A DNA stretch of 51,540 nt from sequence record ON711395.1, one strand, 5' to 3'. The DNA comes from Escherichia phage brachmannus. Position 1 is the stretch's first letter; every line of letters begins with the position of its first letter. This document shows positions 15,059 through 27,546 of the stretch, piece after piece. The translations under genes were made by a program, and so were the position numbers. The notes beneath the pieces are model-generated. The model ran no database searches and had not been told where the DNA came from. It saw only the letters and a program-made list of their open reading frames with translations.

Positions 15059-15789
15059 TGATTAGTGCAAAAATTAAACTTGAAATAATGCAGCACGTTA
15101 AAGAGGAATACCCTAAAGAGGCTTGCGGCGTCATAACTCAAAAGTCACGGGTACAGAAATATCACCGCATAACCAACGTGCATGACGATCCAGAAAATCA
15201 TTTTGAAATGGACGCCGTAGAATACGCTGAATCGCTCGACAAAGGCGAATTAATCGCGGTGGTGCATTCCCATTGCGGTGATGGTGCTAGTACGATACCG
15301 AGCGCGCACGACTCATGTATGTGCGATGAAATGGGTGTGTCGTGGATTATAGTGTCATGGCCCGAAGGTGATATGAGAATTGTCGAGCCGCAGGAGAGGC
15401 AGCTTATCGGTCGACCGTGGTCGCTTGGGTCGTTCGATTGCTGGGGTCTTATCATGGCGTGGCATAAACAGCACGGAGTAGTATTGAATGACTTCCGAAA
15501 GCCTTACGAGTGGTGGAAGTCAGAATATGGTGAAAATCTTTACCAGGATAATTATTTGAAAGAGGGATTTGTTGAAACTAACGAACCTCCAAAACCTGGT
15601 GATATGGTGATTATGCAGCTATCATCGCCAGTCTGGAATCATGCGGGGATTTATTTGGGTAACAATCAGCTATTACATCATGCGTTTGGAAAGCTATCTC
15701 GCATTGACTTGTATTCTGGATGGTATCAGGAGCACACTGTGAAAATTTGCCGACATAAGGATCTGAAATATGACATTGAAAGTAATTAA
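15058..15789 (+). CDS. tail tip protein (lambda K-like; JAB/MPN + NlpC/P60 domains)
   Basis: ATG 15058 overlaps stop of L gene; HSH...D JAMM-like motif and Cys/His NlpC/P60-like motifs (DCWGL, HAGIY). Confidence 0.75.
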   Translation: MISAKIKLEIMQHVKEEYPKEACGVITQKSRVQKYHRITNVHDDPENHFEMDAVEYAESLDKGELIAVVHSHCGDGASTIPSAHDSCMCDEMGVSWIIVSWPEGDMRIVEPQERQLIGRPWSLGSFDCWGLIMAWHKQHGVVLNDFRKPYEWWKSEYGENLYQDNYLKEGFVETNEPPKPGDMVIMQLSSPVWNHAGIYLGNNQLLHHAFGKLSRIDLYSGWYQEHTVKICRHKDLKYDIESN

Positions 15790-16366
15790 ACTATCTGGTT
15801 CCCTGGGGCGTAGATTTGGCGTCTTTCACAAAATGGCGGTTGACTCATACCCCGAAGCAATACGCGCGTTATCTTCCCAGGTTGACGGGTTCAAAGACTA
15901 CATGCAAAGCGAAGTTGGATCGCGCATGAAGTATGCTATATTCGTTGACGGTAAAAACATTGGTCAGCATGATGAAAAATCATGGAAGTGCGCGCGAGAG
16001 GTTAGAATAGTTCCTGTTCCAACTGGTTCTAAGTCCGGCGGCCTGTTCAATGTTGTTTTTGGTGCTGTAATTATGGCTACTGCGTTCATTACTGGCGGTG
16101 CAAGCCTGGCGGCTATGGGCGCTTTTGCATCTTCCGCATTTATGATGGGTGGTGCTATCGCGCTTGGCGGTGTCATGCAAATGATCTCACCGCAGCAGGG
16201 CGGAATAAAACTGCAAAGCCAATCAGCAGAAAACAAGCCTTCTTACGCTTTCGGCGGCGCAGTAAATACCACGGCGGCAGGCTATCCGGTTCCTTTGCCA
16301 TATGGATATAGGACAGTAGGCGGCGCGATCTGGTCGGCTGGCAGCTACGCAGAGGACAAAGCATAA
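15770..16366 (+). CDS. tail assembly protein (lambda I-like)
   Basis: 198 aa with glycine/alanine-rich hydrophobic C-terminal half; synteny. Confidence 0.7.
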   Translation: MTLKVIKLSGSLGRRFGVFHKMAVDSYPEAIRALSSQVDGFKDYMQSEVGSRMKYAIFVDGKNIGQHDEKSWKCAREVRIVPVPTGSKSGGLFNVVFGAVIMATAFITGGASLAAMGAFASSAFMMGGAIALGGVMQMISPQQGGIKLQSQSAENKPSYAFGGAVNTTAAGYPVPLPYGYRTVGGAIWSAGSYAEDKA

Positions 16367-16367
16367 A

Positions 16368-16386
16368 TAGCACAATATGTTAAAGC
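16368..16386 (+). promoter_or_regulatory. conserved motif variant TAGCACAATATGTTAAAGC + 8-bp hairpin + TACAAT upstream of HNH gene
   Basis: same cassette architecture as early-gene copies. Confidence 0.5.
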
Positions 16387-16427
16387 GAAAACGGATTTTC
16401 GCTTTACAATTAATTAAGGAGATGATC

Positions 16428-16904
16428 ATGTGGCGTGATATTTTTTATTATAATGACGGTAAGTTATTTTGGGCTGTAGACGTAGGAAGAAGGATAAAGA
16501 AAGGAAGTGAGGCAGGAAGCGTAAGCAAAAGCAAGAAGAGTGGAGAAAGGGTTAGAATATCAATTGATGGAGAAAGATACTACAGGAGCAGGATAGTTTG
16601 GGAAATTCATAATGGAGAAATACCGCATGGAATGCAAGTTGATCACATAGATCACAACACAATGAACGACAATATTTCAAACTTAAGACTTGTTAGAATG
16701 AGTGTTAACAACAAGAATAAGTCGCTTTACAGGAACAGCAAGACGGGAATTACTGGGGTAAACTTTAGTCGCGGAAAATGGATTGCAAGAGCAAAGATTG
16801 ATGGTGTTAGGCATGAATTTTACTTTGATTCATTTCAGGATGCGGCAGAAAAGAGGATAGAGATTGAAGTTTTAAACAAATTCCACATAAACCACGGAAA
16901 GTAG
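16428..16904 (+). CDS. HNH homing endonuclease with AP2-like DNA-binding domain
   Basis: HNH motif VDHIDHN...NLRL; AT-rich with AGA/AGG arginine codons unlike surrounding genes; inserted between tail genes I and J; paralog at 35773-36246. Confidence 0.8.
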   Translation: MWRDIFYYNDGKLFWAVDVGRRIKKGSEAGSVSKSKKSGERVRISIDGERYYRSRIVWEIHNGEIPHGMQVDHIDHNTMNDNISNLRLVRMSVNNKNKSLYRNSKTGITGVNFSRGKWIARAKIDGVRHEFYFDSFQDAAEKRIEIEVLNKFHINHGK

Positions 16905-16907
16905 ATT

Positions 16908-16933
16908 TAACCAGCATTGCGCTGGTTTTTTTG
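16908..16933 (+). terminator. intrinsic terminator after HNH gene
   Basis: AACCAGC-ATTGC-GCTGGTT then T7. Confidence 0.65.
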
Positions 16934-16981
16934 TGCATTTATAATGAGCAAACCAATAAACAGCACAAAAGGTTAAAAGTC

Positions 16982-19900
16982 ATGGATAAATGTATGATAA
17001 GTGGCAGTAAGGGCGGAAGCAAAAAGCCATACGTGCCAAAAGAGATGGAAGATAACCTGATCTCGATAAACAAGATTAAAGTTTTGCTGGCTGTATCTGA
17101 TGGCGAGTGCGATCCAGACTTCACGTTGCGTGATCTTTATCTTGATGATGTTCCGGTTATTGCCAGCGATGGCACTGTTAACTATGAGGGGGTAACGGCT
17201 GAATATAGACCAGGTACACAGACGCAAGATTACATCCAGGGGTTTACTGACACATCAAGCGAGGTGACAGTTTCGCGAGATATTACAGCAGACAATCCCT
17301 ATATTATCTCTGTAACAAATAAAAATCTTTCTGCAATCAGAATCAAGATTCTGATGCCAGTTGGCATAAAACAGGAGGATAACGGCGATCTTGTTGGTGT
17401 AAGGGTTCAATATGCCGTAGATATGGCTGTTGATGGCGGTTCTTATAGCGAGGTTATGAGAGATGTAATTGACGGCAAGACAAGATCAGGATATGACCGC
17501 AGCAGAAGGATTGATCTTCCTAAGTTTGATGAGCGCGTTTTAATCAGGGTCAAGCGGCTGACTCCAGACAGCACATCTTCAAAGGTGACTGATAAAATCA
17601 AACTGCAAAGTTACGCTGAGGTTGTGGATGCAAAATTCCGTTATCCTCTGACTGGCCTTGTATTCGTAGAGTTTGACAGCGAATTGTTTCCTACGCAAAT
17701 CCCTAACATTTCTATAAAAAAGAAATGGAAGATTATTAATGTGCCAAGCAACTATGATCCAATATCTAGAGAATATCACGGGTCATGGGATGGGACTTTT
17801 AAAAAAGCGTGGTCAAATAATCCTGCTTGGGTTCTTTATGATCTGGTAACGAATCAGCGTTATGGACTTGACCAGCGAGAGTTAGGAATACAGATCGACA
17901 AGTGGAGCTTATACGAGGCTGGTGTTTACTGTGATCAGAAAGTTCCAGACGGTAAGGGCGGTACAGAGCCTCGCTACCTATGCGATGTGGTGATCCAGAA
18001 TCAGGTTGAGGCTTATCAGCTAATCCGTGACATTTGCTCAATCTTTCGCGGAATGAGCTTTTGGAATGGAGAGAGCTTATCAATCGTAATTGATAAACCG
18101 CGCGATCCATCATACGTGTTTACTAATGAAAACGTCATCAACGGTGATTTTCAGTACACAGCAGCAAGCGAAAAAAGCATGTACACGCAATGTAATGTGA
18201 CGTTTGACGACGAACAAAACATGTATCAGCAGGACGTAGAGGGGGTTTTTGATACTGAGGCGGCATTACGATTTGGATACAATCCAACAAGCATTACAGC
18301 GATCGGGTGTACACGCAGGAGCGAAGCGAATCGTCGCGGTCGGTGGGTTTTGAAAACAAACCTTAGAAGCACTACTGTAAACTTTGCTACCGGACTAGAG
18401 GGGATGATTCCATCCATAGGTGATGTGATTGCTATCGCTGATAATTTTCAGAGCAGCAATCTAACGTTAAATCTTTCGGGCCGAGTAATGGAAGTTTCAG
18501 GCTTGCAAGTTTTCGTTCCGTTTAAGGTTGATGCGCGTCCTGGTGATTTTATTATCATCAACAAGCCGGACGGAAAGCCAGTTAAGCGAACGATCTCAAA
18601 GGTGAGCGCAGACGGAAAAACCATTGAGTTAAATATTGGCTTTGGTTTTGATGTTAAGCCTGATACTGTTTTTGCGATTGACCGTACTGACCTTGCGTTG
18701 CAGCAATACGTTGTGACAACTATCAGCAAGGGTGATGACGAAAACGAGTTTACCTATTCAATCACGGCTGTGGAGTACGATCCGAACAAATACGACGAGA
18801 TTGATTATGGAGTAAACATTGATGACAGACCGACTTCAATTGTTCAGCCTGACGTGATGGCAGCGCCTGAGAACGTTAAGATCTCATCTTATTCTCGCGT
18901 CGTGCAGGGTGTTAGCGTTGAGACTATGGTTGTTTCATGGGATAAGGTTCCTTACGCATCGCTTTATGAAATGCAGTGGCGAAAAGGTGATGGTAACTGG
19001 CTGAATACGCCGCAGACAGCTAACAAAGAGATAGAGGTAGAAGGGATTTACTCTGGCAACTACCAAGTAAGGGTGAGATCCGTTTCTGCAAGCGGTAACG
19101 CTTCCCCGTGGTCAAAGATTGCAACCGCCACTCTGACAGGTAAAGTTGGCGAGCCAGGAGCGCCGATTAATCTTACGGCTTCTGATAATGAAGTTTTTGG
19201 CATTCGTGTCAAATGGGGTATGCCGGAAGGATCGGGCGATACGGCTTACATTGAGCTTCACCAATCGCCAGATGGGACGGTGGAAAACTCAAGTTTGCTT
19301 ACGCTGATCCCGTATCCTCAATATGAGTATTGGCATAGCACGTTACCAGCGGGTCAAGTTGTATGGTATAGAATCCGTAGCGTTGACAGGATCGGCAACG
19401 TTTCCGGCTGGACTGACTTTGTTCGCGGCATGGCGTCAGATGATGTTGAATCTGTTTTAGGCGACATTCTGGACAAGATTTTTGATACCGAAGCGGGTCA
19501 AGAAATCAAAGAGAACGCCATAGACAGTGCAAACAAAATCAAAGACCAGGCGCAATCAATCATCCAGAACGCATTGGCAAACGATGCCGATGTGAAGTGG
19601 ACGCGAGTACAAAACGGAAAGCGTAAGGCTGAATATGGTCATGCACTGGAGCTTATTGCTACCGAAACGGAGGCGCGAGTAACTCAAATCGAAGAGTTAA
19701 AGGCGTCAATTGATGAAGATATAGTTTCAAGTATCAAAACCGTTCAGGAAGCGATTGCCAATGAATCAGAGACGCGAGCTACTCAAGTGCAGCAGCTTGA
19801 TTCTAAATTTACGAAGGAAATAGACGGCGTAAAACGAGATACGGCTGCAAGCATTGGCGAGGTAAGGCAAACCATTACCAATGAATCAGAAGCGCGTGCG

Positions 19901-20560
19901 CAAGCCGTTCAGCAGCTTGACGCTAAGTTTTCGAAAGAGATTAATGACCTTAACGATGCAATCAAGGTTGATGTTGAGGCGAACATATCAGAAGTAAGAC
20001 AGGCTATCGCTAATGAGACAGAGGCAAGGGTTCAGGCTGACCAGGCTTTAACAGCCAAATTCGGAGACGTTGAATCAGCACTAGCCGAAAAACTTGATTC
20101 GTGGGCTAACGTTGATTCTGTTGGCGCTAAGTACGCTATGAAATTGGGCCTTACTTACAAGGGGCAGAAGTACAGCGCAGGAATGATCATGCAGTTGTCG
20201 CAATCTTCTCAAGGCCTGATCTCGCAAATCTTGTTCGATGCTAACAGGTTCGCGATCATGACTAGCTCTACTGGCGGTACGTTTACATTGCCGTTTGTAG
20301 TAGAAAATAACCAGGTGTTTATCAACAGTTTGTTGGTGAAAAACGGGTCCATTACTAACGCAATGATTGGTAACGTGATTCAGTCAAATAACTTTGTTCA
20401 GAATCAGCAAGGATGGAGGCTTGATAAAAATGGTAACTTTGAGAACTACGGAACGAGAGCGGGGGAAGGAGCTACAAAATTCACTAACGAAGGCTTAAAG
20501 GTGAAAGATGCAAATGGACGATTGAGGGTTGAGATAGGGAGAATAACCGGAAGTTGGTAA
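16982..20560 (+). CDS. central tail fibre / host specificity protein (lambda J-like)
   Basis: about 1190 aa; N-terminus GSKGGSKKPYVPKEMEDNL resembles lambda J N-terminus; alternative start ATG 16994; C-terminal coiled-coil repeats. Confidence 0.85.
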   Translation: MDKCMISGSKGGSKKPYVPKEMEDNLISINKIKVLLAVSDGECDPDFTLRDLYLDDVPVIASDGTVNYEGVTAEYRPGTQTQDYIQGFTDTSSEVTVSRDITADNPYIISVTNKNLSAIRIKILMPVGIKQEDNGDLVGVRVQYAVDMAVDGGSYSEVMRDVIDGKTRSGYDRSRRIDLPKFDERVLIRVKRLTPDSTSSKVTDKIKLQSYAEVVDAKFRYPLTGLVFVEFDSELFPTQIPNISIKKKWKIINVPSNYDPISREYHGSWDGTFKKAWSNNPAWVLYDLVTNQRYGLDQRELGIQIDKWSLYEAGVYCDQKVPDGKGGTEPRYLCDVVIQNQVEAYQLIRDICSIFRGMSFWNGESLSIVIDKPRDPSYVFTNENVINGDFQYTAASEKSMYTQCNVTFDDEQNMYQQDVEGVFDTEAALRFGYNPTSITAIGCTRRSEANRRGRWVLKTNLRSTTVNFATGLEGMIPSIGDVIAIADNFQSSNLTLNLSGRVMEVSGLQVFVPFKVDARPGDFIIINKPDGKPVKRTISKVSADGKTIELNIGFGFDVKPDTVFAIDRTDLALQQYVVTTISKGDDENEFTYSITAVEYDPNKYDEIDYGVNIDDRPTSIVQPDVMAAPENVKISSYSRVVQGVSVETMVVSWDKVPYASLYEMQWRKGDGNWLNTPQTANKEIEVEGIYSGNYQVRVRSVSASGNASPWSKIATATLTGKVGEPGAPINLTASDNEVFGIRVKWGMPEGSGDTAYIELHQSPDGTVENSSLLTLIPYPQYEYWHSTLPAGQVVWYRIRSVDRIGNVSGWTDFVRGMASDDVESVLGDILDKIFDTEAGQEIKENAIDSANKIKDQAQSIIQNALANDADVKWTRVQNGKRKAEYGHALELIATETEARVTQIEELKASIDEDIVSSIKTVQEAIANESETRATQVQQLDSKFTKEIDGVKRDTAASIGEVRQTITNESEARAQAVQQLDAKFSKEINDLNDAIKVDVEANISEVRQAIANETEARVQADQALTAKFGDVESALAEKLDSWANVDSVGAKYAMKLGLTYKGQKYSAGMIMQLSQSSQGLISQILFDANRFAIMTSSTGGTFTLPFVVENNQVFINSLLVKNGSITNAMIGNVIQSNNFVQNQQGWRLDKNGNFENYGTRAGEGATKFTNEGLKVKDANGRLRVEIGRITGSW
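19640..20060 (+). repeat. intragenic tandem repeats (three units of about 35 codons) in J-like gene
   Basis: protein repeats I(A/T)NE(S/T)E(A/T)R...VQQLD(S/A)KF(T/S)KEI. Confidence 0.6.
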
Positions 20561-20586: not shown

Positions 20587-21201
20587 TTAATCATAGTGCG
20601 ATGAATTTATAACCAAAACAGATGATGCCGTGTAAATACCAACAGGACCAGGAGTTTGCGCAACCTGCCTAGATAAAGAATATACCCCGTTGCCATACGC
20701 GGCAGCTTGAGACTCAAATATCATGAATCCACCTAAAGACGGATTGGGCACAGAGTTTAAAGCTGTTAGTGATGGCATGATGGCGCAAGGGTATCCCAAG
20801 TTAACGTCAAAAGCGATCCCGCTTACAGATACAAGTTTTGCATCCAAAGGCTTCATCTTTCCATGATAAACCATCTCACCATTAGCATTATAAAAAGCTA
20901 TTCCGTGACTACCAGGAGGAGTAACCATGTTGCTAAAAGCATAAACAAATACCTCGCCTTGATTGTCGGACTTTTCTATCTTTATTGCGTGCTTCCCACC
21001 ATTATTAAACTGAGTAAATGCTATGTATGATTTTGATGTTAACCTTACAAAAAAGAAGCACGGTCTATTTATTGGTATAGAAGTATTAAAAACGGTTCCT
21101 GTTCTTGCTGATATTTTCCCTTTATCTATAAGGTTAACAGGAGTGAAATCTGGACTTAACCACAATGAACCGTCCGGTTTTTTTATGCTCATCCCGTACA
21201 T
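20587..21201 (-). CDS. hypothetical protein (possible tail fibre-associated)
   Basis: ORF on minus strand; ATG at 21199-21201 with GGGGG RBS-like run (track start 21213 is TTG). Confidence 0.4.
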   Translation of the reverse strand: MYGMSIKKPDGSLWLSPDFTPVNLIDKGKISARTGTVFNTSIPINRPCFFFVRLTSKSYIAFTQFNNGGKHAIKIEKSDNQGEVFVYAFSNMVTPPGSHGIAFYNANGEMVYHGKMKPLDAKLVSVSGIAFDVNLGYPCAIMPSLTALNSVPNPSLGGFMIFESQAAAYGNGVYSLSRQVAQTPGPVGIYTASSVLVINSSHYD

Positions 21202-21203
21202 TA

Positions 21204-21482
21204 TTACCCCCAAAAAGTATATATATATCTTGAGTCAGATCCAGAAAGGCCACTCCATGTAACGGTATCACCACTTACACCCAACTTTGGAGCGCCTGGA
21301 TCGCCTCCTCGCCACGAATTAATTCCAACATATATTGCTTTCAAAGACTTACCTGGCGGCCTGTTTGAGTAGGTCTTACTGCCGGATGATTGGGTAAATT
21401 TATCCAAGAAAAAAACTGGAGTTAAAAGACCAGTAACATTTCTACCTTGCTCATCATATATTGCATACCCATATTCAGCCAT
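21204..21482 (-). CDS. hypothetical protein
   Basis: 92-aa ORF with GAGGTG RBS; ends in T5G5 homopolymer region abutting downstream ORF. Confidence 0.4.
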   Translation of the reverse strand: MAEYGYAIYDEQGRNVTGLLTPVFFLDKFTQSSGSKTYSNRPPGKSLKAIYVGINSWRGGDPGAPKLGVSGDTVTWSGLSGSDSRYIYTFWG

Positions 21483-21750
21483 TTTTGCACCTCAAATCAA
21501 TGAATTTTCTTTCATCTTGCCAACGGTTGATAAATTTAACTTCTTTATTGTCAACGCTCAACCTGTATTGCTTTTGGCTGAATCTGTTTTCGCGGACAGC
21601 ATTAATTTTAACTTCATGGAATCCGTTAACAGGGAATGTTTTAACGTTAAATTTTGCCGTGCAATCGATCTCCTTGAAGTTGCCAGTAGGCGAAGAAGAA
21701 CATCCGGTCAGAGCGGCTACGGTGGCGATAACTGCGATTAATTTTTTCAT
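21475..21750 (-). CDS. lipoprotein, candidate Cor/Llp-like superinfection exclusion protein
   Basis: signal peptide with lipobox LTGC; AAGGAG RBS; small size; located next to tail fibre genes with own promoter region. Confidence 0.45.
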   Translation of the reverse strand: MKKLIAVIATVAALTGCSSSPTGNFKEIDCTAKFNVKTFPVNGFHEVKINAVRENRFSQKQYRLSVDNKEVKFINRWQDERKFIDLRCKNG

Positions 21751-21806
21751 CTTCAATACTCCTTAGTTGTTGTTGGCTGTAACTATACACGATCCGACAA
21801 GCTGAG

Positions 21807-23368: not shown

Positions 23369-24037
<669 letters not shown>

Positions 24038-24545: not shown

Positions 24546-24577
24546 CCGCATATGCGGGGCTTTTTTAGTCTAACGTG
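24546..24577. terminator. bidirectional terminator after ssb
   Basis: AAAAAGCCCCGCA-TAT-GCGGGGCTTTTTT. Confidence 0.75.
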
Positions 24578-25089
24578 GTTGGTTTGTTTACCAGTGCCTC
24601 TACAACCGCTTTTAGCTCGTCAATTTCTTTTCTCATCTCATCGTTTTCCGCTTTCAGTTTCTTAACGTGGTGAATCAGTGGAACAGTGAGGCGGTCATAC
24701 ATAACGCCTTCCGCCACCATGCCATTACTTGAAGCAATGGCAGGATCTTCTCCTTCTTGCAGCGGTCGCCAGTGAACGTACTCCGGCGCAATTTCTCCAA
24801 CCTCTTCCGCGATTAGCCCGTACCATCCCCAATCTTTACGGTCGCTTTCACAAGTTGACCGATACCAAACAGGACGCATTTCAAGCATCAGATCCGCATA
24901 TTCATCAATAACCGATTCTACGCTGCGCTTATAACGAGAAGAGGAAGTGGAGCGTAAAACTTGCGAAACTCCAGCATTTGGATCAAGCCATAAGTTTGCT
25001 GATTGAGCGGTTGTGTTAAGATTAAATAAATAAAATGCATCGTTACCAGTTAGGGGGTAAAAACTCCCACTATACCTTCCGCTATCCAA
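24565..25089 (-). CDS. tail fibre C-terminal intramolecular chaperone-like domain protein (peptidase S74-like)
   Basis: SSSRYKRSVESVIDEY and YGLIAEEVGEIAPE resemble S74 chaperone domain motifs; C-terminal coiled coil; only TTG start available, likely fused with upstream ORF. Confidence 0.45.
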   Translation of the reverse strand: MDSGRYSGSFYPLTGNDAFYLFNLNTTAQSANLWLDPNAGVSQVLRSTSSSRYKRSVESVIDEYADLMLEMRPVWYRSTCESDRKDWGWYGLIAEEVGEIAPEYVHWRPLQEGEDPAIASSNGMVAEGVMYDRLTVPLIHHVKKLKAENDEMRKEIDELKAVVEALVNKPTTLD

Positions 25090-25238
25090 CTCGGACGATA
25101 GATCATTTTGTTTAGATACAACTTCAACTTATTGTCAACATCAGTAGTTGATGCTTTTCCTGCAACATCCTGTTTTAGTGTTGAAACGTCATTTTTCAGC
25201 TTCGTTATATCACTAGGTATAACAGTGACTGTAGCCAT
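25050..25238 (-). CDS. small coiled-coil protein, probable N-terminal part of split fibre/chaperone gene
   Basis: 62-aa ORF ending in T5C5 run; downstream ORF continues in -1 frame. Confidence 0.35.
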   Translation of the reverse strand: MATVTVIPSDITKLKNDVSTLKQDVAGKASTTDVDNKLKLYLNKMIYRPSWIAEGIVGVFTP

Positions 25239-25250
25239 TTTCCTAACTCC

Positions 25251-25529
25251 TTAAGCCCATTCTCTAATAGGCCGATCTAACTCAACCACGTATCCATTAA
25301 AAATTACGGCATCAAACTTATCATCAATGATTCGCACATTAACGAAATAGCCGTCGTTCTTTCGCGCAATCTCCTCGCCATCGTCATATCGTGCAATTAC
25401 TGTATAAGTATTGCCGATTACATCGAGCAGGGTTGCATCCTGAATGGATTCGTTTTCGTTCCATTCAATTTCTTCCAGAAAGGCGGAAAACTCCGCCTTG
25501 TCTACAAATTTCAGTGTTAAATCACGCAT
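25251..25529 (-). CDS. hypothetical protein (tail fibre-associated)
   Basis: ATG overlapping stop of tail fibre gene. Confidence 0.4.
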   Translation of the reverse strand: MRDLTLKFVDKAEFSAFLEEIEWNENESIQDATLLDVIGNTYTVIARYDDGEEIARKNDGYFVNVRIIDDKFDAVIFNGYVVELDRPIREWA

Positions 25530-27508
25530 TATACAATTTCCCCCAATTGATGATCTGTTAGTGCCTTGTGCCATATACGGAAGTTTCTAACGTGACCGAA
25601 AAGATGGCGTTCGCCTGTACTTGTTTGTCCGCCAATCCTTATAGTAGCCGTTGATACTATATATCTCCATTCCGTTTTTGTTTCGCTTGATATTCTGGCA
25701 TTACTTACACAACAAGTATTGTAATCACTCTTTACTCTCATTCCTATGATCATCTTTTTTAGTTTTGCATTCTCGTAAACCCTTCTTTTTGATCCACCTA
25801 TATCGCAATAAGGGAATCCATCATTATCGCCATCGGCAGGCCCGAAAGCAAGAATAATTGCCGCACCAGATTGATGACCTCCAGTATCGAAAACACGAGG
25901 CGCAGCATTTGGCGTTATATACCAGTTCTTATGTACCTCACAAAGAACAGTAAAAGGAAGATTATAAAGGTTATTCTTGATTGGGATTGTCACCATATCG
26001 CTTGCCCGTGTTACTGGAGTCTCTTCTGTAATAATAAACGATGAAGCGCACACACCTCCTTCAACTTGAGGGGTAGCAATATAAATATAATCACCTGCAC
26101 CAGTTCCCCCTCCATCTTTTGCTGGTGCATACTGCACCATTGCACCGATCATATTTTCTGTATCAAGCGCTTTAATTGTTGCCTCAAAGAAAATCCATTT
26201 GCTTGCTTCATCTTTAACAGCCCTTGCAGTAATACGATTTGCAGCGCCGCCAGTTTTTTCAATTGATAAATCTGTCAGATTTACGTAAGCATCACCCAAA
26301 AATGCATAAGAAGATCCATCGTAGTTTTCAAATCGTAATCGGCATCTTAAATTTGGAGTCCCACTTTGCGCCCTGCATGATATGGTTACATACTTTTCAT
26401 TTCCTGTTACATCAAAACCTCTACTGCCGGAAACGGTTACTATGTTAATCGCTGAAGTTTGTCCTACCATTTCTGGTTTTAATGTAAATTTTGCGTACTG
26501 GAATCCGAAATCATCTACACCTGATCTATCTAAGATCATATTTGATGACTTGTTCCATTTTGAAGGATTGGTACTATTTATAAGAAGGTTTGTTCTTTGC
26601 CCCTCAATGAGCAGACCATCCTTTTCAAATCTAGGTTCATCAATAGCAGCATTAGTAAGCACCCCAGACTTATTAATGTAAGTAGCGGTTGATGCTCGTT
26701 TAAACTTAACTATCTTGTCACCTGGCATCGTGATCTCATCGTCACCTATAACAATCTTTTTGTATGACGGCGAGAATCCGGTAATCATATCCAGGGAGTC
26801 ATTAAATGGTATCCACACGTCCGGCAACGGTTGCAATAAGTCCTTGTAAGGTTCTGCCGCCTGCTTTGCGTATTCCTCCGCTTGATCTCGCGCACTTTCA
26901 GCTCCTGCCTTTGCAGTGTTCGCAGCGTCACGCGCGGATTCAGCGCCAGACTTTGCTGCTTCAGCGCCAGTCTTTGCAGTGTTTGCAGCGTCGCGCGCGG
27001 ATTCAGCGGCAGCCTTTGCAGTATCAGCACCTTTCTTGCTATTCGCTGCATTTGTTGCGCTTGTCTTCGCGTTATTCTCGCTGGTTTTAGCTGCCTGCTG
27101 GCTTGCTGCTGCTGCGTCAGCATTTGTCTTTACGTCTTCCTGGATCTTCTGTAGCTTATCCCAATCAAAATCCTTGATGATCTCAATAAATCCAGCAAAC
27201 TCCGATTCCTTCCCCTGGTAATAACGCAGCGTTTCCGCTACGTCTTGCGCAAGACCGTCAACCGTTAACGAGTCATGAAGCAAGATCAGGTAATTTGTCT
27301 TCTGGACTACCGCGCCGCCAGTAGTAATTGCGCGAATGCTTGTATCGCTAATCACTTCTGTAATCACAGCAGCTTGCAAAGGTTGAGCAAGAAAGAAAAT
27401 AGTTGCGCCTGGGCGAATCAATGTTAATTGCTCACGCCATTTTGTACCGTAACCAGTTACATAACCTTGCTCGTCCATAGACGCTTGGCCTTGTCTGTAA
27501 ATCGCCAT
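25529..27508 (-). CDS. tail fibre protein
   Basis: about 660 aa; Ala/Ser/Thr-rich tandem repeats typical of fibre shafts; C-terminal lectin-like region (NFRIWHKALTDHQLGEI); ATG 27506-27508 with AGGAGG RBS. Confidence 0.7.
   Translation of the reverse strand: MAIYRQGQASMDEQGYVTGYGTKWREQLTLIRPGATIFFLAQPLQAAVITEVISDTSIRAITTGGAVVQKTNYLILLHDSLTVDGLAQDVAETLRYYQGKESEFAGFIEIIKDFDWDKLQKIQEDVKTNADAAAASQQAAKTSENNAKTSATNAANSKKGADTAKAAAESARDAANTAKTGAEAAKSGAESARDAANTAKAGAESARDQAEEYAKQAAEPYKDLLQPLPDVWIPFNDSLDMITGFSPSYKKIVIGDDEITMPGDKIVKFKRASTATYINKSGVLTNAAIDEPRFEKDGLLIEGQRTNLLINSTNPSKWNKSSNMILDRSGVDDFGFQYAKFTLKPEMVGQTSAINIVTVSGSRGFDVTGNEKYVTISCRAQSGTPNLRCRLRFENYDGSSYAFLGDAYVNLTDLSIEKTGGAANRITARAVKDEASKWIFFEATIKALDTENMIGAMVQYAPAKDGGGTGAGDYIYIATPQVEGGVCASSFIITEETPVTRASDMVTIPIKNNLYNLPFTVLCEVHKNWYITPNAAPRVFDTGGHQSGAAIILAFGPADGDNDGFPYCDIGGSKRRVYENAKLKKMIIGMRVKSDYNTCCVSNARISSETKTEWRYIVSTATIRIGGQTSTGERHLFGHVRNFRIWHKALTDHQLGEIV
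26880..27120 (-). repeat. intragenic tandem repeats in tail fibre gene (Ala-rich shaft repeats)
   Basis: repeated DNA blocks CTTTGCAGTGTT(C/T)GCAGCGTC(A/G)CGCGCGGATTCAGCG; protein AESARDAANTAK repeats. Confidence 0.6.
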
Positions 27509-27526
27509 TTGTAAAATCCTCCTAAA

Positions 27527-27546
27527 TAGCACTTTTTGCTAATGAC
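27527..27546 (+). promoter_or_regulatory. conserved motif copy TAGCACTTTTTGCTAATGAC (antisense to adjacent tail fibre gene start)
   Basis: abuts RBS of tail fibre gene on opposite strand. Confidence 0.5.

What the first reader, a model, noticed from the sequence alone, without database searches (positions are those of the whole stretch)
19640..20060. Tandem coiled-coil repeats within the J-like tail fibre gene
Three consecutive units of about 35 codons repeat in the C-terminal part of the J-like protein. Such repeats can expand or contract by recombination and may change fibre length or receptor reach.
Basis: seen in the sequence. Interest (0 to 1): 0.35.

Follow-up and report, generated by a model that had tools for sequence, protein, structure and literature searches.

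The report
Repeated helical shaft units in phage tail fibre
The central tail fibre protein of this T1-like coliphage has a long helical shaft built from four diverged copies of a 33-44 residue unit; this is a real but ordinary feature whose copy number differs between phage lineages and so sets fibre length.

Summary
The repeat is real. It lies in the lambda-J-type central fibre gene (16982-20560, +) of a T1-like (Drexlerviridae) coliphage. Four copies of the motif I-x-N/T-E-x-E-A/T-R...L-x-x-K-F start at 19655, 19754, 19874 and 20006. They delimit three full units of 33, 40 and 44 codons plus a truncated fourth.

The repeat is a diverged protein-level one. Pairwise z-scores are 4.6-17, and a unit HMM hit 0 of 300 shuffled proteins. 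TRF finds nothing in the DNA, and no two units share an exact word longer than 13 nt.

The units form the alpha-helical shaft between the last FNIII domain and the PF09327 beta-prism. Hydrophobic periodicity is 3.65 residues, which is hendecad-type, not heptad. AF2 predicts one continuous helix of about 186 residues.

Across relatives the shaft has 0 units (lambda), then 2, 3, 4, 6 or 7, giving 144-362 aa in Drexlerviridae. T1 and mEp043 carry near-perfect 99-nt and perfect 96-nt unit duplications. Every full-length match listed, down to 81% identity, keeps exactly 684 nt.

So expansion and contraction is an evolutionary process in this family. It is not an active process in this phage. The feature is ordinary and of low interest.

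The parts
16982..20560 (+). Gene for the lambda-J-type tip attachment / central tail fibre protein (1192 aa from ATG 16982; T1 gp33 orthologue).
   Evidence: ORF 16931-20560. ATG 16982 matches the annotated start in phage tonijn and the T1 N-terminus. Pfam PF24801, PF13550 and PF09327. PHROG 31 'central tail fiber J'. 96-97.5% nt identity to the J genes of JLBYU10, Poky and tonijn.
18905..19438 (+). FNIII region that precedes the shaft. The last FNIII domain ends ...RSVDRIGNVSGWTDFVRGMAS.
   Evidence: Weak Pfam fn3 hit at residues 638-712. Collinear alignment to the modelled FNIII part of T1 gp33. Used as anchor A.
19439..20122 (+). Whole alpha-helical shaft (AHS) of 228 aa, between the last FNIII domain and the beta-rich PF09327 domain.
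   Evidence: Anchor-delimited segment. AF2 helices cover residues 6-18 and 21-206 of the query that starts at nt 19430, i.e. about nt 19445-20047. Hydrophobic period 3.65, reached by 0 of 500 shuffles.
19607..19639 (+). Conserved V-Q-N-G-K-R-K-A-E-Y-G segment just upstream of unit 1. The hydrophobic seam breaks here, so it is a candidate kink or hinge.
   Evidence: The seam path degenerates here to V893-G896-K899-Y902 in steps of 3. AF2 pLDDT dips to 50-57. 'ENGKRKAE' is conserved in all Drexlerviridae shafts listed.
19643..19741 (+). Unit 1, 33 codons (3 hendecads). Motif IATETEAR at 19655, followed by RVTQIE.
   Evidence: It is a positional orthologue of unit 1 in all relatives.
19742..19861 (+). 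Unit 2, 40 codons (3 hendecads + 1 heptad). Motif IANESETR at 19754.
   Evidence: An interior, variable unit: it is 33 aa in T1 and 52 aa in L005.
19862..19993 (+). Unit 3, 44 codons (4 hendecads). Motif ITNESEAR at 19874.
   Evidence: It is 65% identical to unit 2 over the 26-aa core.
19994..20110 (+). Unit 4, terminal and truncated. Motif IANETEAR at 20006. Its first ~18 residues are helical. The rest leads into the beta-prism and aligns with the lambda gpJ AHS segment that switches from helix to beta on receptor binding.
   Evidence: Alignment of query residues 215-307 to lambda gpJ 842-934. Lambda residues 841-861 switch helix to beta (PMC11101478). It is a positional orthologue of the last unit in all relatives.
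20081..20470 (+). PF09327 'bacteriophage tail tip fiber' domain (the central straight fibre, a beta-prism).
   Evidence: Pfam E = 4.8e-40, residues 1030-1159 counted from ATG 16994. AF2 predicts beta strands.
20587..21756 (-). Downstream receptor-binding module on the opposite strand: T1 gp31-like (20587-21213), T1 gp32-like (21204-21482) and Cor-like (21475-21756). It probably supplies the RBP and adaptor carried at the tip of the shaft.
   Evidence: PHROG 425, 557 and 1119. Literature: Drexlerviridae RBPs are encoded next to gpJ (PMC8594841). The DEV gp56-gp55-gp54 fibre is the structural analogue (PMC12892993).

Best explanation
The repeat is the modular alpha-helical shaft (AHS) of the trimeric central tail fibre of a T1-like phage.

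In lambda gpJ the AHS is a short (~33 aa) three-helix bundle between the second FNIII domain and the beta-prism. Here it has grown to 228 aa. It consists of a conserved pre-repeat helix plus four copies of an ancestral unit of about 33 residues. Each unit opens with a conserved polar motif (I-x-N-E-S/T-E-A-R-h-x-x-h-E/Q-x-L) and then has a strong I/V/L/F seam.

The unit lengths are 33, 40 and 44 residues. They correspond to 9, 11 and 12 seam steps of 3 or 4 residues, which is about 3.66 residues per step. Every unit therefore keeps the hydrophobic seam in register, and the bundle should be a nearly straight, hendecad-type coiled coil. Each unit adds about 5-6.5 nm, and the whole shaft is about 34 nm.

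The shaft holds the beta-prism, and the separately encoded adaptor/RBP pair, away from the tail-tip hub. By analogy with lambda it must also carry the receptor-binding signal back to the FNIII latch.

Interior units arose by unit-sized tandem duplication. That process is still visible in T1 and mEp043. In this phage the copies have diverged, and the 33/40/44 architecture is fixed throughout its clade.

Shown here: the repeat and its significance, the periodicity, the predicted helix, the position of the shaft in the domain order, the copy-number differences among relatives, and the recent duplications elsewhere.

Inferred: the trimeric bundle, the spacer function and the signal-transmission function.
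For: - Repeat and statistics.
- Periodicity: peak at 3.645-3.65 residues, power 4.58 against a shuffle mean of 0.61 +/- 0.24, reached by 0 of 500 shuffles, with power 0.19 at 3.50.
- Explicit seam: 9, 11 and 12 steps for the 33, 40 and 44 aa units, 3.656 overall, with I/V/L/F at nearly every seam position.
- AF2: continuous helix over residues 21-206, with pLDDT 80-90 across the units.
- Domain order: FNIII, then shaft, then PF09327.
- T1 gp33 aligns across the region with gaps of exactly 7 and 11 residues.
- Shaft length and unit number in relatives: lambda-like 33 aa / 0 units; JeanPiccard 144 / 2; PGN590-like, TLS-like and Webervirus 177-184 / 3; T1, this phage, L010 and L005 210-240 / 4; P-K7R 314 / 6; RCIP0096 and K50PH164C1 358-362 / 7.
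- The first and last units are positional orthologues, and the interior units are paralogous.
- Recent duplications: T1, 99 nt, 98/99 identical, TRF score 421; mEp043, 96 nt, 100%.
- Literature: the lambda AHS is a three-helix bundle that clamps FNIII-2 and flips on LamB binding (PMC11101478). The F2 pyocin J homologue has a long three-stranded coiled-coil AHS resolved by cryo-EM (PMC13455828). T1 gp33 residues 821-1172 are unresolved, and AF3 predicts a fibre of about 370 A (PMC11945409). That length agrees with about 31 nm of helix plus the prism.
Against: - No experimental structure covers this segment in any T1-like phage.
- The AF2 model is a monomer with pTM 0.26, so it says nothing about oligomeric state or supercoiling.
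- A period of 3.65 cannot be told from 3.60 over 156 residues. 'Hendecad' therefore rests on the unit-length bookkeeping, not on the spectrum alone.
- The unit HMM recognises the solved pyocin shaft only weakly (best i-E 4.5e-4 on a 12-residue stretch). Residue-level homology to a resolved coiled coil is therefore not established.
- No data link shaft length to adsorption or host range. Klebsiella phages have both 3-unit and 7-unit shafts.
Confidence: 0.75

Rival explanations
1. The repeated conserved motifs are docking sites for other virion proteins, that is lateral fibres or accessory proteins. The F2 pyocin works this way: three side-fibre trimers attach to a Gly kink in the helical shaft and form a six-helix bundle with it. 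On this reading unit number or position would set where, or how many, appendages bind.
For: F2 pyocin side fibres PyoF13 dock on the AHS (PMC13455828). The attachment site of lateral fibres in T1-like phages is unknown, because the T1 structure came from a fibreless laboratory strain. This phage's lateral-fibre N-terminus is conserved with T1 gp26 (49%) and with the Klebsiella phage depolymerases 7vyv and 7lzj. It shows no similarity to lambda Stf, whose N-terminal domain is the one known to dock on gpV/gpM (PMC12617516). The pre-repeat segment and the unit 1 motif are the most conserved parts of the shaft.
Against: A PDB search with the lateral fibre found no pyocin chain. Unit number runs from 2 to 7 in phages that share the same lateral-fibre anchor domain. 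That argues against a fixed one-unit-one-fibre stoichiometry. The motif's Ser/Thr and Ala residues lie on the hydrophobic seam, which suggests a structural role rather than a surface one. The better-conserved candidate site is the single NGKRKAEYG break, not the repeats.
Confidence: 0.1
2. The array is an active contingency locus in this phage. Recombination between units frequently creates length variants within populations, which changes receptor reach.
For: T1 and mEp043 carry (near-)perfect unit duplications. The phage encodes an exonuclease VIII-type nuclease and a single-strand annealing recombinase just downstream.
Against: The units in this window share no exact word longer than 13 nt, their cores are 65-81% identical, and they differ in length. 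TRF finds nothing. All 44 listed full-length GenBank matches, at 81-99% identity, have a span of exactly 684 nt in a single piece.
Confidence: 0.04
3. The apparent repeat is a by-product of biased A/E/Q/K-rich helical composition. It would then not reflect duplication of a unit.
For: Coiled-coil sequences often give spurious self-similarity. Weak Pfam hits to unrelated coiled-coil families (CCDC90-like, SF-assemblin) illustrate this.
Against: Composition-preserving shuffles never reach the observed U2/U3 or U3/U4 scores (z = 17.4 and 11.5). None of 300 shuffled proteins hits the unit HMM. The same ordered motif recurs at register-preserving spacings. T1 shows the duplication process directly.
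Confidence: 0.02

Closest known systems
Alpha-helical shaft (AHS) of phage lambda gpJ (PDB 8XCK, 8XCI; PMC11101478)
   Same: It holds the same position in the same protein family, between FNIII-2 and the beta-prism (central straight fibre). The end of unit 4 and the start of PF09327 align with lambda residues 842-934. The lambda AHS is a three-helix bundle.
   Different: The lambda shaft is about 33-36 aa and has no copy of the unit. Here it is 228 aa with four units. Lambda carries its receptor-binding domain on gpJ itself, whereas this phage encodes separate small proteins next to J.
Extended AHS of the F2-type pyocin central fibre (PDB 25vf; PMC13455828)
   Same: It is a J homologue (E = 8.5e-226 over the N-terminal part) with a long three-stranded coiled-coil shaft before the PF09327-type region. 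It shows that long shafts of this kind do form trimeric coiled coils.
   Different: The pyocin shaft has an insertion domain and a Gly kink that anchors side fibres. The unit HMM matches it only weakly. Whether side fibres dock on the shaft in T1-like phages is unknown.
Phage T1 gp33 (PDB 9l9p chain S; PMC11945409)
   Same: It is the orthologue (1820 bits, collinear over the full length). It has the same four-unit shaft and the same motif.
   Different: The T1 units are 33/33/33, and units 2 and 3 are a 98/99-nt identical recent duplication. Here the units are 33/40/44 and diverged. The segment is unresolved in the T1 map.
Hendecad (11/3) coiled coils, e.g. in trimeric autotransporter adhesin stalks and tetrabrachion (own knowledge; general background in PMC4786415)
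   Same: The hydrophobic seam has 3-4-4 spacing and about 3.67 residues per core position. Unit lengths are multiples of 11, or 33 + 7.
   Different: No structural data exist here. The shaft is related to those proteins by geometry only, not by descent.
DEV gp56-gp55-gp54 receptor-binding fibre (PDB 9ZE4; PMC12892993)
   Same: A J-like trimeric fibre (E = 4.6e-6 to the C-terminal region) whose beta-helical tip recruits an adaptor and an RBP encoded by the adjacent genes. This is the likely arrangement for the products of 20587-21482.
   Different: DEV is a podovirus. Its fibre attaches laterally to a tail plug. Its adaptor and RBP genes are co-transcribed with the fibre gene, whereas here they lie on the opposite strand.

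Membership tests
Lambda gpJ-type tip attachment / central tail fibre protein | Hub and FNIII-A domains (PF24801, PF13550) followed by the C-terminal tail tip fibre domain (PF09327) | tested here: met
   PF24801 E = 5.7e-41, PF13550 E = 7.2e-23, PF09327 E = 4.8e-40, all above the curated cut-offs. PHROG 31 'central tail fiber J'.
Lambda gpJ-type tip attachment / central tail fibre protein | Sequence homology to structurally characterised J proteins | tested here: met
   T1 gp33 9l9p E = 0; F2 pyocin 25vf E = 8.5e-226; lambda gpJ 8iyk E = 1.3e-119.
Lambda gpJ-type tip attachment / central tail fibre protein | Position at the end of the tail-tip gene block (tape measure, M, L, K, I, J) | tested here: met
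   The collinear phage tonijn is annotated with tape measure, minor tail proteins and a tail assembly protein upstream. T1 has the same order.
gpJ alpha-helical shaft (AHS) | Lies between the last FNIII domain and the beta-prism (CSF / PF09327) | tested here: met
   The shaft 19439-20122 is delimited by the FNIII end and the PF09327 start. Its C-terminal end aligns with the lambda AHS/CSF junction.
gpJ alpha-helical shaft (AHS) | Alpha-helical secondary structure | tested here: met
   AF2 predicts helix over residues 21-206 with pLDDT up to 90. This is a prediction, not an experiment.
gpJ alpha-helical shaft (AHS) | Parallel three-helix bundle in the assembled trimer | not testable with these tools
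   Only single-chain prediction is available. The bundle is inferred from lambda and the F2 pyocin (PMC11101478, PMC13455828) and from the continuous seam.
gpJ alpha-helical shaft (AHS) | Flips and partly converts to beta on receptor binding, releasing the FNIII latch | not testable with these tools
   Known only for lambda. The only hint here is low AF2 confidence with strand calls at the homologous residues 208-226.
Canonical heptad coiled coil | Hydrophobic periodicity of 3.5 residues (a/d heptads) | tested here: not met
   Power at 3.50 is 0.19, against 4.58 at 3.64.
Hendecad-type (11/3) coiled coil | Periodicity of about 3.67 with 3-4-4 seam spacing | tested here: met
   Peak at 3.645-3.65. 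Seam steps give 33/9, 40/11 and 44/12, i.e. 3.667, 3.636 and 3.667. A period of 3.60 cannot be strictly excluded from the spectrum alone.
Recombinogenic DNA tandem repeat (VNTR / contingency locus) | Head-to-tail DNA copies similar enough for slippage or homologous recombination | tested here: not met
   TRF gives no rows. The longest shared word is 13 nt. Length is invariant in all 44 listed full-length matches at 81-99% identity. T1 and mEp043 do meet this feature.
Kammerer trimerisation motif R-h-x-x-h-E (recalled from memory: Kammerer et al. 2005 PNAS) | Arg, two core hydrophobic residues and Glu with that spacing, placed g-a-b-c-d-e | tested here: inconclusive
   Read directly from the sequence. 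Unit 1 has R-V-T-Q-I-E with V and I on the seam. Units 2 and 3 have R-A-T-Q-V-Q and R-A-Q-A-V-Q, with Gln in place of Glu. Unit 4 does not fit. This is a lead only.

The most novel reading that the evidence does not exclude
The units may be more than inert spacers. Each conserved polar motif, or the conserved NGKRKAEYG seam break just upstream, could be a functional site on a long hendecad shaft. One possibility is a docking groove for the T1-type lateral-fibre anchor domain, as in the F2 pyocin. Another is a set of metastable polar core layers that let the ~34 nm bundle unzip or convert to beta and so relay receptor binding to the FNIII latch. Unit number would then tune appendage geometry or triggering, not just length.
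Probability: 0.1. Interest if true: 0.55.

Novelty: new member of a known kind. Interest (0 to 1): 0.22.

Why it matters
The result has three modest uses.

1. It gives a sequence rule for a part of T1-like virions that no structure has yet resolved. The shaft is a register-preserving string of 33-44 residue hendecad units. Central-fibre length can therefore be read from a genome as about 0.15 nm per residue, or 21-54 nm across Drexlerviridae.

2. It marks natural cut points for engineering fibre length: the unit boundaries and the conserved pre-repeat helix, after which some relatives diverge abruptly.

3. It flags the one seam break as the place to look for a hinge or docking site.

It does not reveal a new mechanism. 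The gene is 96-97% identical to many deposited phages.

Tried and rejected
- TRF on the region and on the whole gene found nothing, because the copies are below about 70% identity and unequal in length. Protein-level tests were used instead.
- The search for homologous proteins with the C-terminal 396 aa returned mostly truncated proteins. These were of little use for counting full arrays. IMG/VR loci and GenBank records were used instead.
- The AF2 monomer model cannot address trimer formation. With pTM 0.26, a Foldseek search was judged uninformative and was not run.
- The unit HMM on the pyocin and 23gd fragments visible gave only weak hits. I do not claim residue-level homology to a resolved coiled coil.
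- A BLASTP test of whether the lateral fibre uses a lambda Stf-type anchor found no similarity. A PDB search found only depolymerase N-termini. The docking question stays open.
- A literature search for a hendecad description of phage J shafts found only a general coiled-coil paper.
- I looked for a host correlation with shaft length, on the idea that Klebsiella capsule might need a long shaft. I rejected it as a simple rule, because Klebsiella phages have both 3-unit (Webervirus) and 6-7-unit shafts.
- No ORF of 60 aa or more lies on the opposite strand under the repeat.
Full report
**Source and gene.** The window is a T1-like coliphage of the Drexlerviridae. The region 16931-20560 is 96-97.5% identical at the nucleotide level to the J-like genes of phages JLBYU10, Poky and tonijn (Tempevirinae, Warwickvirus). 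The gene most likely starts at ATG 16982, as annotated in tonijn and as in T1 gp33, and encodes 1192 aa. Pfam finds FNIII-A_GpJ, Phage-tail_3, a weak fn3 hit and the C-terminal Phage_Tail_Tip domain PF09327. PHROGs calls it 'central tail fiber J'. The best solved-structure matches are T1 gp33 (9l9p), the F2 pyocin fibre (25vf), a J-like gp24 (23gd) and lambda gpJ (8iyk).

**The observation.** Tandem Repeats Finder reports nothing in the region or in the whole gene, even at score 30. A looser repeat search finds a four-copy family of a 31-nt core at 19650, 19749, 19869 and 20001, with spacings of 99, 120 and 132 nt and 65-81% identity. In the protein, the motif [IL]-x-[TN]-E-[ST]-E-[AT]-R occurs four times, at nt 19655, 19754, 19874 and 20006.

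The layout is three full units plus a truncated fourth:
- U1, 19643-19741, 33 codons.
- U2, 19742-19861, 40 codons.
- U3, 19862-19993, 44 codons.
- U4, from 19994, truncated, leading into the next domain.

Pairwise local alignment scores against 2000 composition-preserving shuffles give z = 17.4 (U2/U3), 11.5 (U3/U4), 7.9, 7.3, 5.3 and 4.6. A unit HMM finds exactly four units in the real protein and none in 300 shuffled copies. It is an old, diverged protein repeat with unequal units, not a DNA tandem array. The longest exact DNA word shared by any two units is 13 nt. No ORF of 60 aa or more lies on the opposite strand.

**What it is.** The units lie in a 228-aa segment (19439-20122) between the end of the last FNIII domain and the start of the PF09327 beta domain. 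AF2 on the single chain predicts one continuous helix of about 186 residues (residues 21-206 of a query starting at nt 19430), with pLDDT 80-90 over the units, followed by beta strands.

The hydrophobic power spectrum of the unit region peaks at 3.64-3.65 residues. The power there is 4.58, against a shuffle mean of 0.61 +/- 0.24, and none of 500 shuffles reaches it. There is essentially no power at the heptad value of 3.50.

A dynamic-programming assignment of the seam, using steps of 3 or 4 residues, gives 9, 11 and 12 steps for the 33-, 40- and 44-residue units. That is 3.667, 3.636 and 3.667 residues per step, and 3.656 overall. I, V, L or F occupies almost every seam position. The exceptions are a Ser/Thr and an Ala inside each conserved motif. 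The units are thus 3 hendecads, 3 hendecads plus a heptad, and 4 hendecads. T1 gp33 aligns across the region with gaps of exactly 7 and 11 residues.

The seam is lost only at the conserved V-Q-N-G-K-R-K-A-E-Y-G segment (19607-19639), just upstream of unit 1. AF2 confidence also dips there. This is a candidate hinge.

**Comparison with solved structures.** In lambda gpJ the segment in this position is the 'alpha-helical shaft' (AHS). It is a three-helix bundle under the FNIII-2 domains. On LamB binding it flips and partly converts to beta (residues 841-861), which releases the FNIII strings and opens the tip (PMC11101478). The end of unit 4 and the start of PF09327 align with lambda residues 842-934. 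The F2 pyocin J homologue has a much longer AHS. [quoted passage not shown] In T1 itself residues 821-1172 were not resolved, and an AF3 model of about 370 A was reported (PMC11945409). That length agrees with about 31 nm of helix for the 210-aa T1 shaft plus the prism. 'Coiled coil' is therefore well supported by inference, with a hendecad rather than heptad geometry. The trimeric state could not be tested with the tools available.

**Copy number across relatives.** I used anchors at the FNIII end and the PF09327 start, together with the unit HMM.

| Group | Shaft (aa) | Units (spacings) |
|---|---|---|
| Lambda-like J | 33-36 | 0 |
| JeanPiccard (Braunvirinae) | 144 | 2 |
| PGN590-like, 2019SD1, TLS-like, Webervirus KpKT21phi1 | 177-184 | 3 |
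| T1 | ~210 | 4 (33/33/33) |
| This phage and its clade | 228 | 4 (33/40/44) |
| L010 | 224 | 4 (33/40/40) |
| L005 | 240 | 4 (33/52/44) |
| Klebsiella phage P-K7R | 314 | 6 |
| RCIP0096, K50PH164C1 | 358-362 | 7 |

phi80 and mEp043 have long shafts made of a different unit. The first and last units are positional orthologues across phages. The interior units are the ones that duplicate or vary.

Two lineages show the process directly. T1 has a 99-nt tandem duplication of exactly one unit, 98 of 99 nt identical, with TRF score 421. mEp043 has a perfect 96-nt duplication.

The picture within this phage's own clade is different. All 44 listed GenBank records that cover the 684-nt shaft, at 81-99% identity, span exactly 684 nt in a single piece. 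The 30 best whole-gene matches are also collinear. Some relatives (tonnikala, tiwna, Kalemo and others) match only the first 155 nt of the shaft, at 94-96% identity, and not beyond. This suggests that the distal fibre is also exchanged as a cassette at the conserved pre-repeat helix.

**Interpretation.** It does not hold as an active process in this phage, because the copies are too diverged and the architecture is fixed.

The most likely function is a register-preserving, modular spacer of about 34 nm. It would present the beta-prism and the separately encoded adaptor/RBP pair to the outer-membrane receptor. That pair comprises the T1 gp32/gp31-like genes at 21204-21482 and 20587-21213 on the minus strand (BASEL paper PMC8594841; DEV analogue PMC12892993). 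By analogy with lambda, the shaft would also transmit the binding signal back to the FNIII latch.

The conserved polar motif at the start of each unit puts Ser/Thr and Ala on the seam next to an Arg. In unit 1 it reads R-V-T-Q-I-E, which resembles the R-h-x-x-h-E trimerisation motif. I recall that motif from memory and treat it only as a lead.

**Rivals.**
- *Docking platform for lateral fibres, as in the pyocin.* This cannot be excluded. The lateral-fibre N-terminus here is T1 gp26-like and is shared with Klebsiella phage depolymerases. It is not lambda Stf-like, and its docking site is unknown. However, unit number varies from 2 to 7 among phages with that same anchor, and nothing from the pyocin entry matches. 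I give this about 0.1.
- *Active contingency locus.* This is contradicted.
- *Composition artefact.* This is contradicted.

**Novelty and verdict.** The gene, its family, the AHS domain and long coiled-coil shafts in J homologues are all known. The explicit unit architecture and hendecad bookkeeping did not turn up in the one literature search made for it, but they are a descriptive refinement. I file the finding as a new member of a known kind, of low interest. Its practical value is for reading or engineering central-fibre length and for pointing structural work at the seam break.

Noticed in passing
window 16368-16909 (ORF 16377-16904, +): An HNH endonuclease gene (PHROG 99, E = 3e-50) sits between the tail assembly gene (15770-16366) and J. 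blastn against phage tonijn shows the stretch is a clean ~540-nt insertion, so it is probably a free-standing homing endonuclease.
   Followed up: partly
window 24565-27532 (- strand): The lateral-fibre locus is a swapped cassette, with no nucleotide similarity to tonijn beyond 24588. The fibre ORF 25529-27532 has a T1 gp26-like N-terminal anchor, also found in the Klebsiella phage depolymerases 7vyv and 7lzj. Small ORFs follow at 25251-25574, 25050-25238 and 24565-25089. The last carries a Peptidase_S74 chaperone domain and overlaps the previous ORF in another frame, so this may be a frameshift or two separate genes.
   Followed up: partly
window 20587-21756 (- strand): The gp31-like, gp32-like and Cor-like genes next to J are all on the minus strand, convergent with J. 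In T1, phi80 and mEp043 the gp32/gp31 homologues follow J on the same strand. The RBP module is inverted in this clade.
   Followed up: no
L041 945-1146 (phage mEp043 J gene); L033 27809-28029 (phage T1 gp33): There are independent recent tandem duplications inside the J shaft. mEp043 has a perfect 96-nt duplication of a different 32-aa unit. T1 has a 99-nt duplication (98/99 identical) of the unit studied here.
   Followed up: yes
window 19439-19593 versus GenBank phages tonnikala, tiwna, Kalemo, atuna: These relatives match the first 155 nt of the shaft at 94-96% identity and then not at all. This suggests a mosaic junction in the conserved pre-repeat helix, where distal fibre cassettes are exchanged.
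   Followed up: no
GenBank MG0656xx 'Campylobacter phage' records (e.g. A136, A14a): Between 9 and 33 records labelled as Campylobacter jejuni phages carry T1-like coliphage J genes at about 80-90% identity. The host labels look doubtful.
   Followed up: no
window ~23374-23387: Phage tonijn has an extra ~250-nt gene (tonijn_20, hypothetical protein) between the exonuclease VIII and recombinase genes. It is absent from the window.
   Followed up: no
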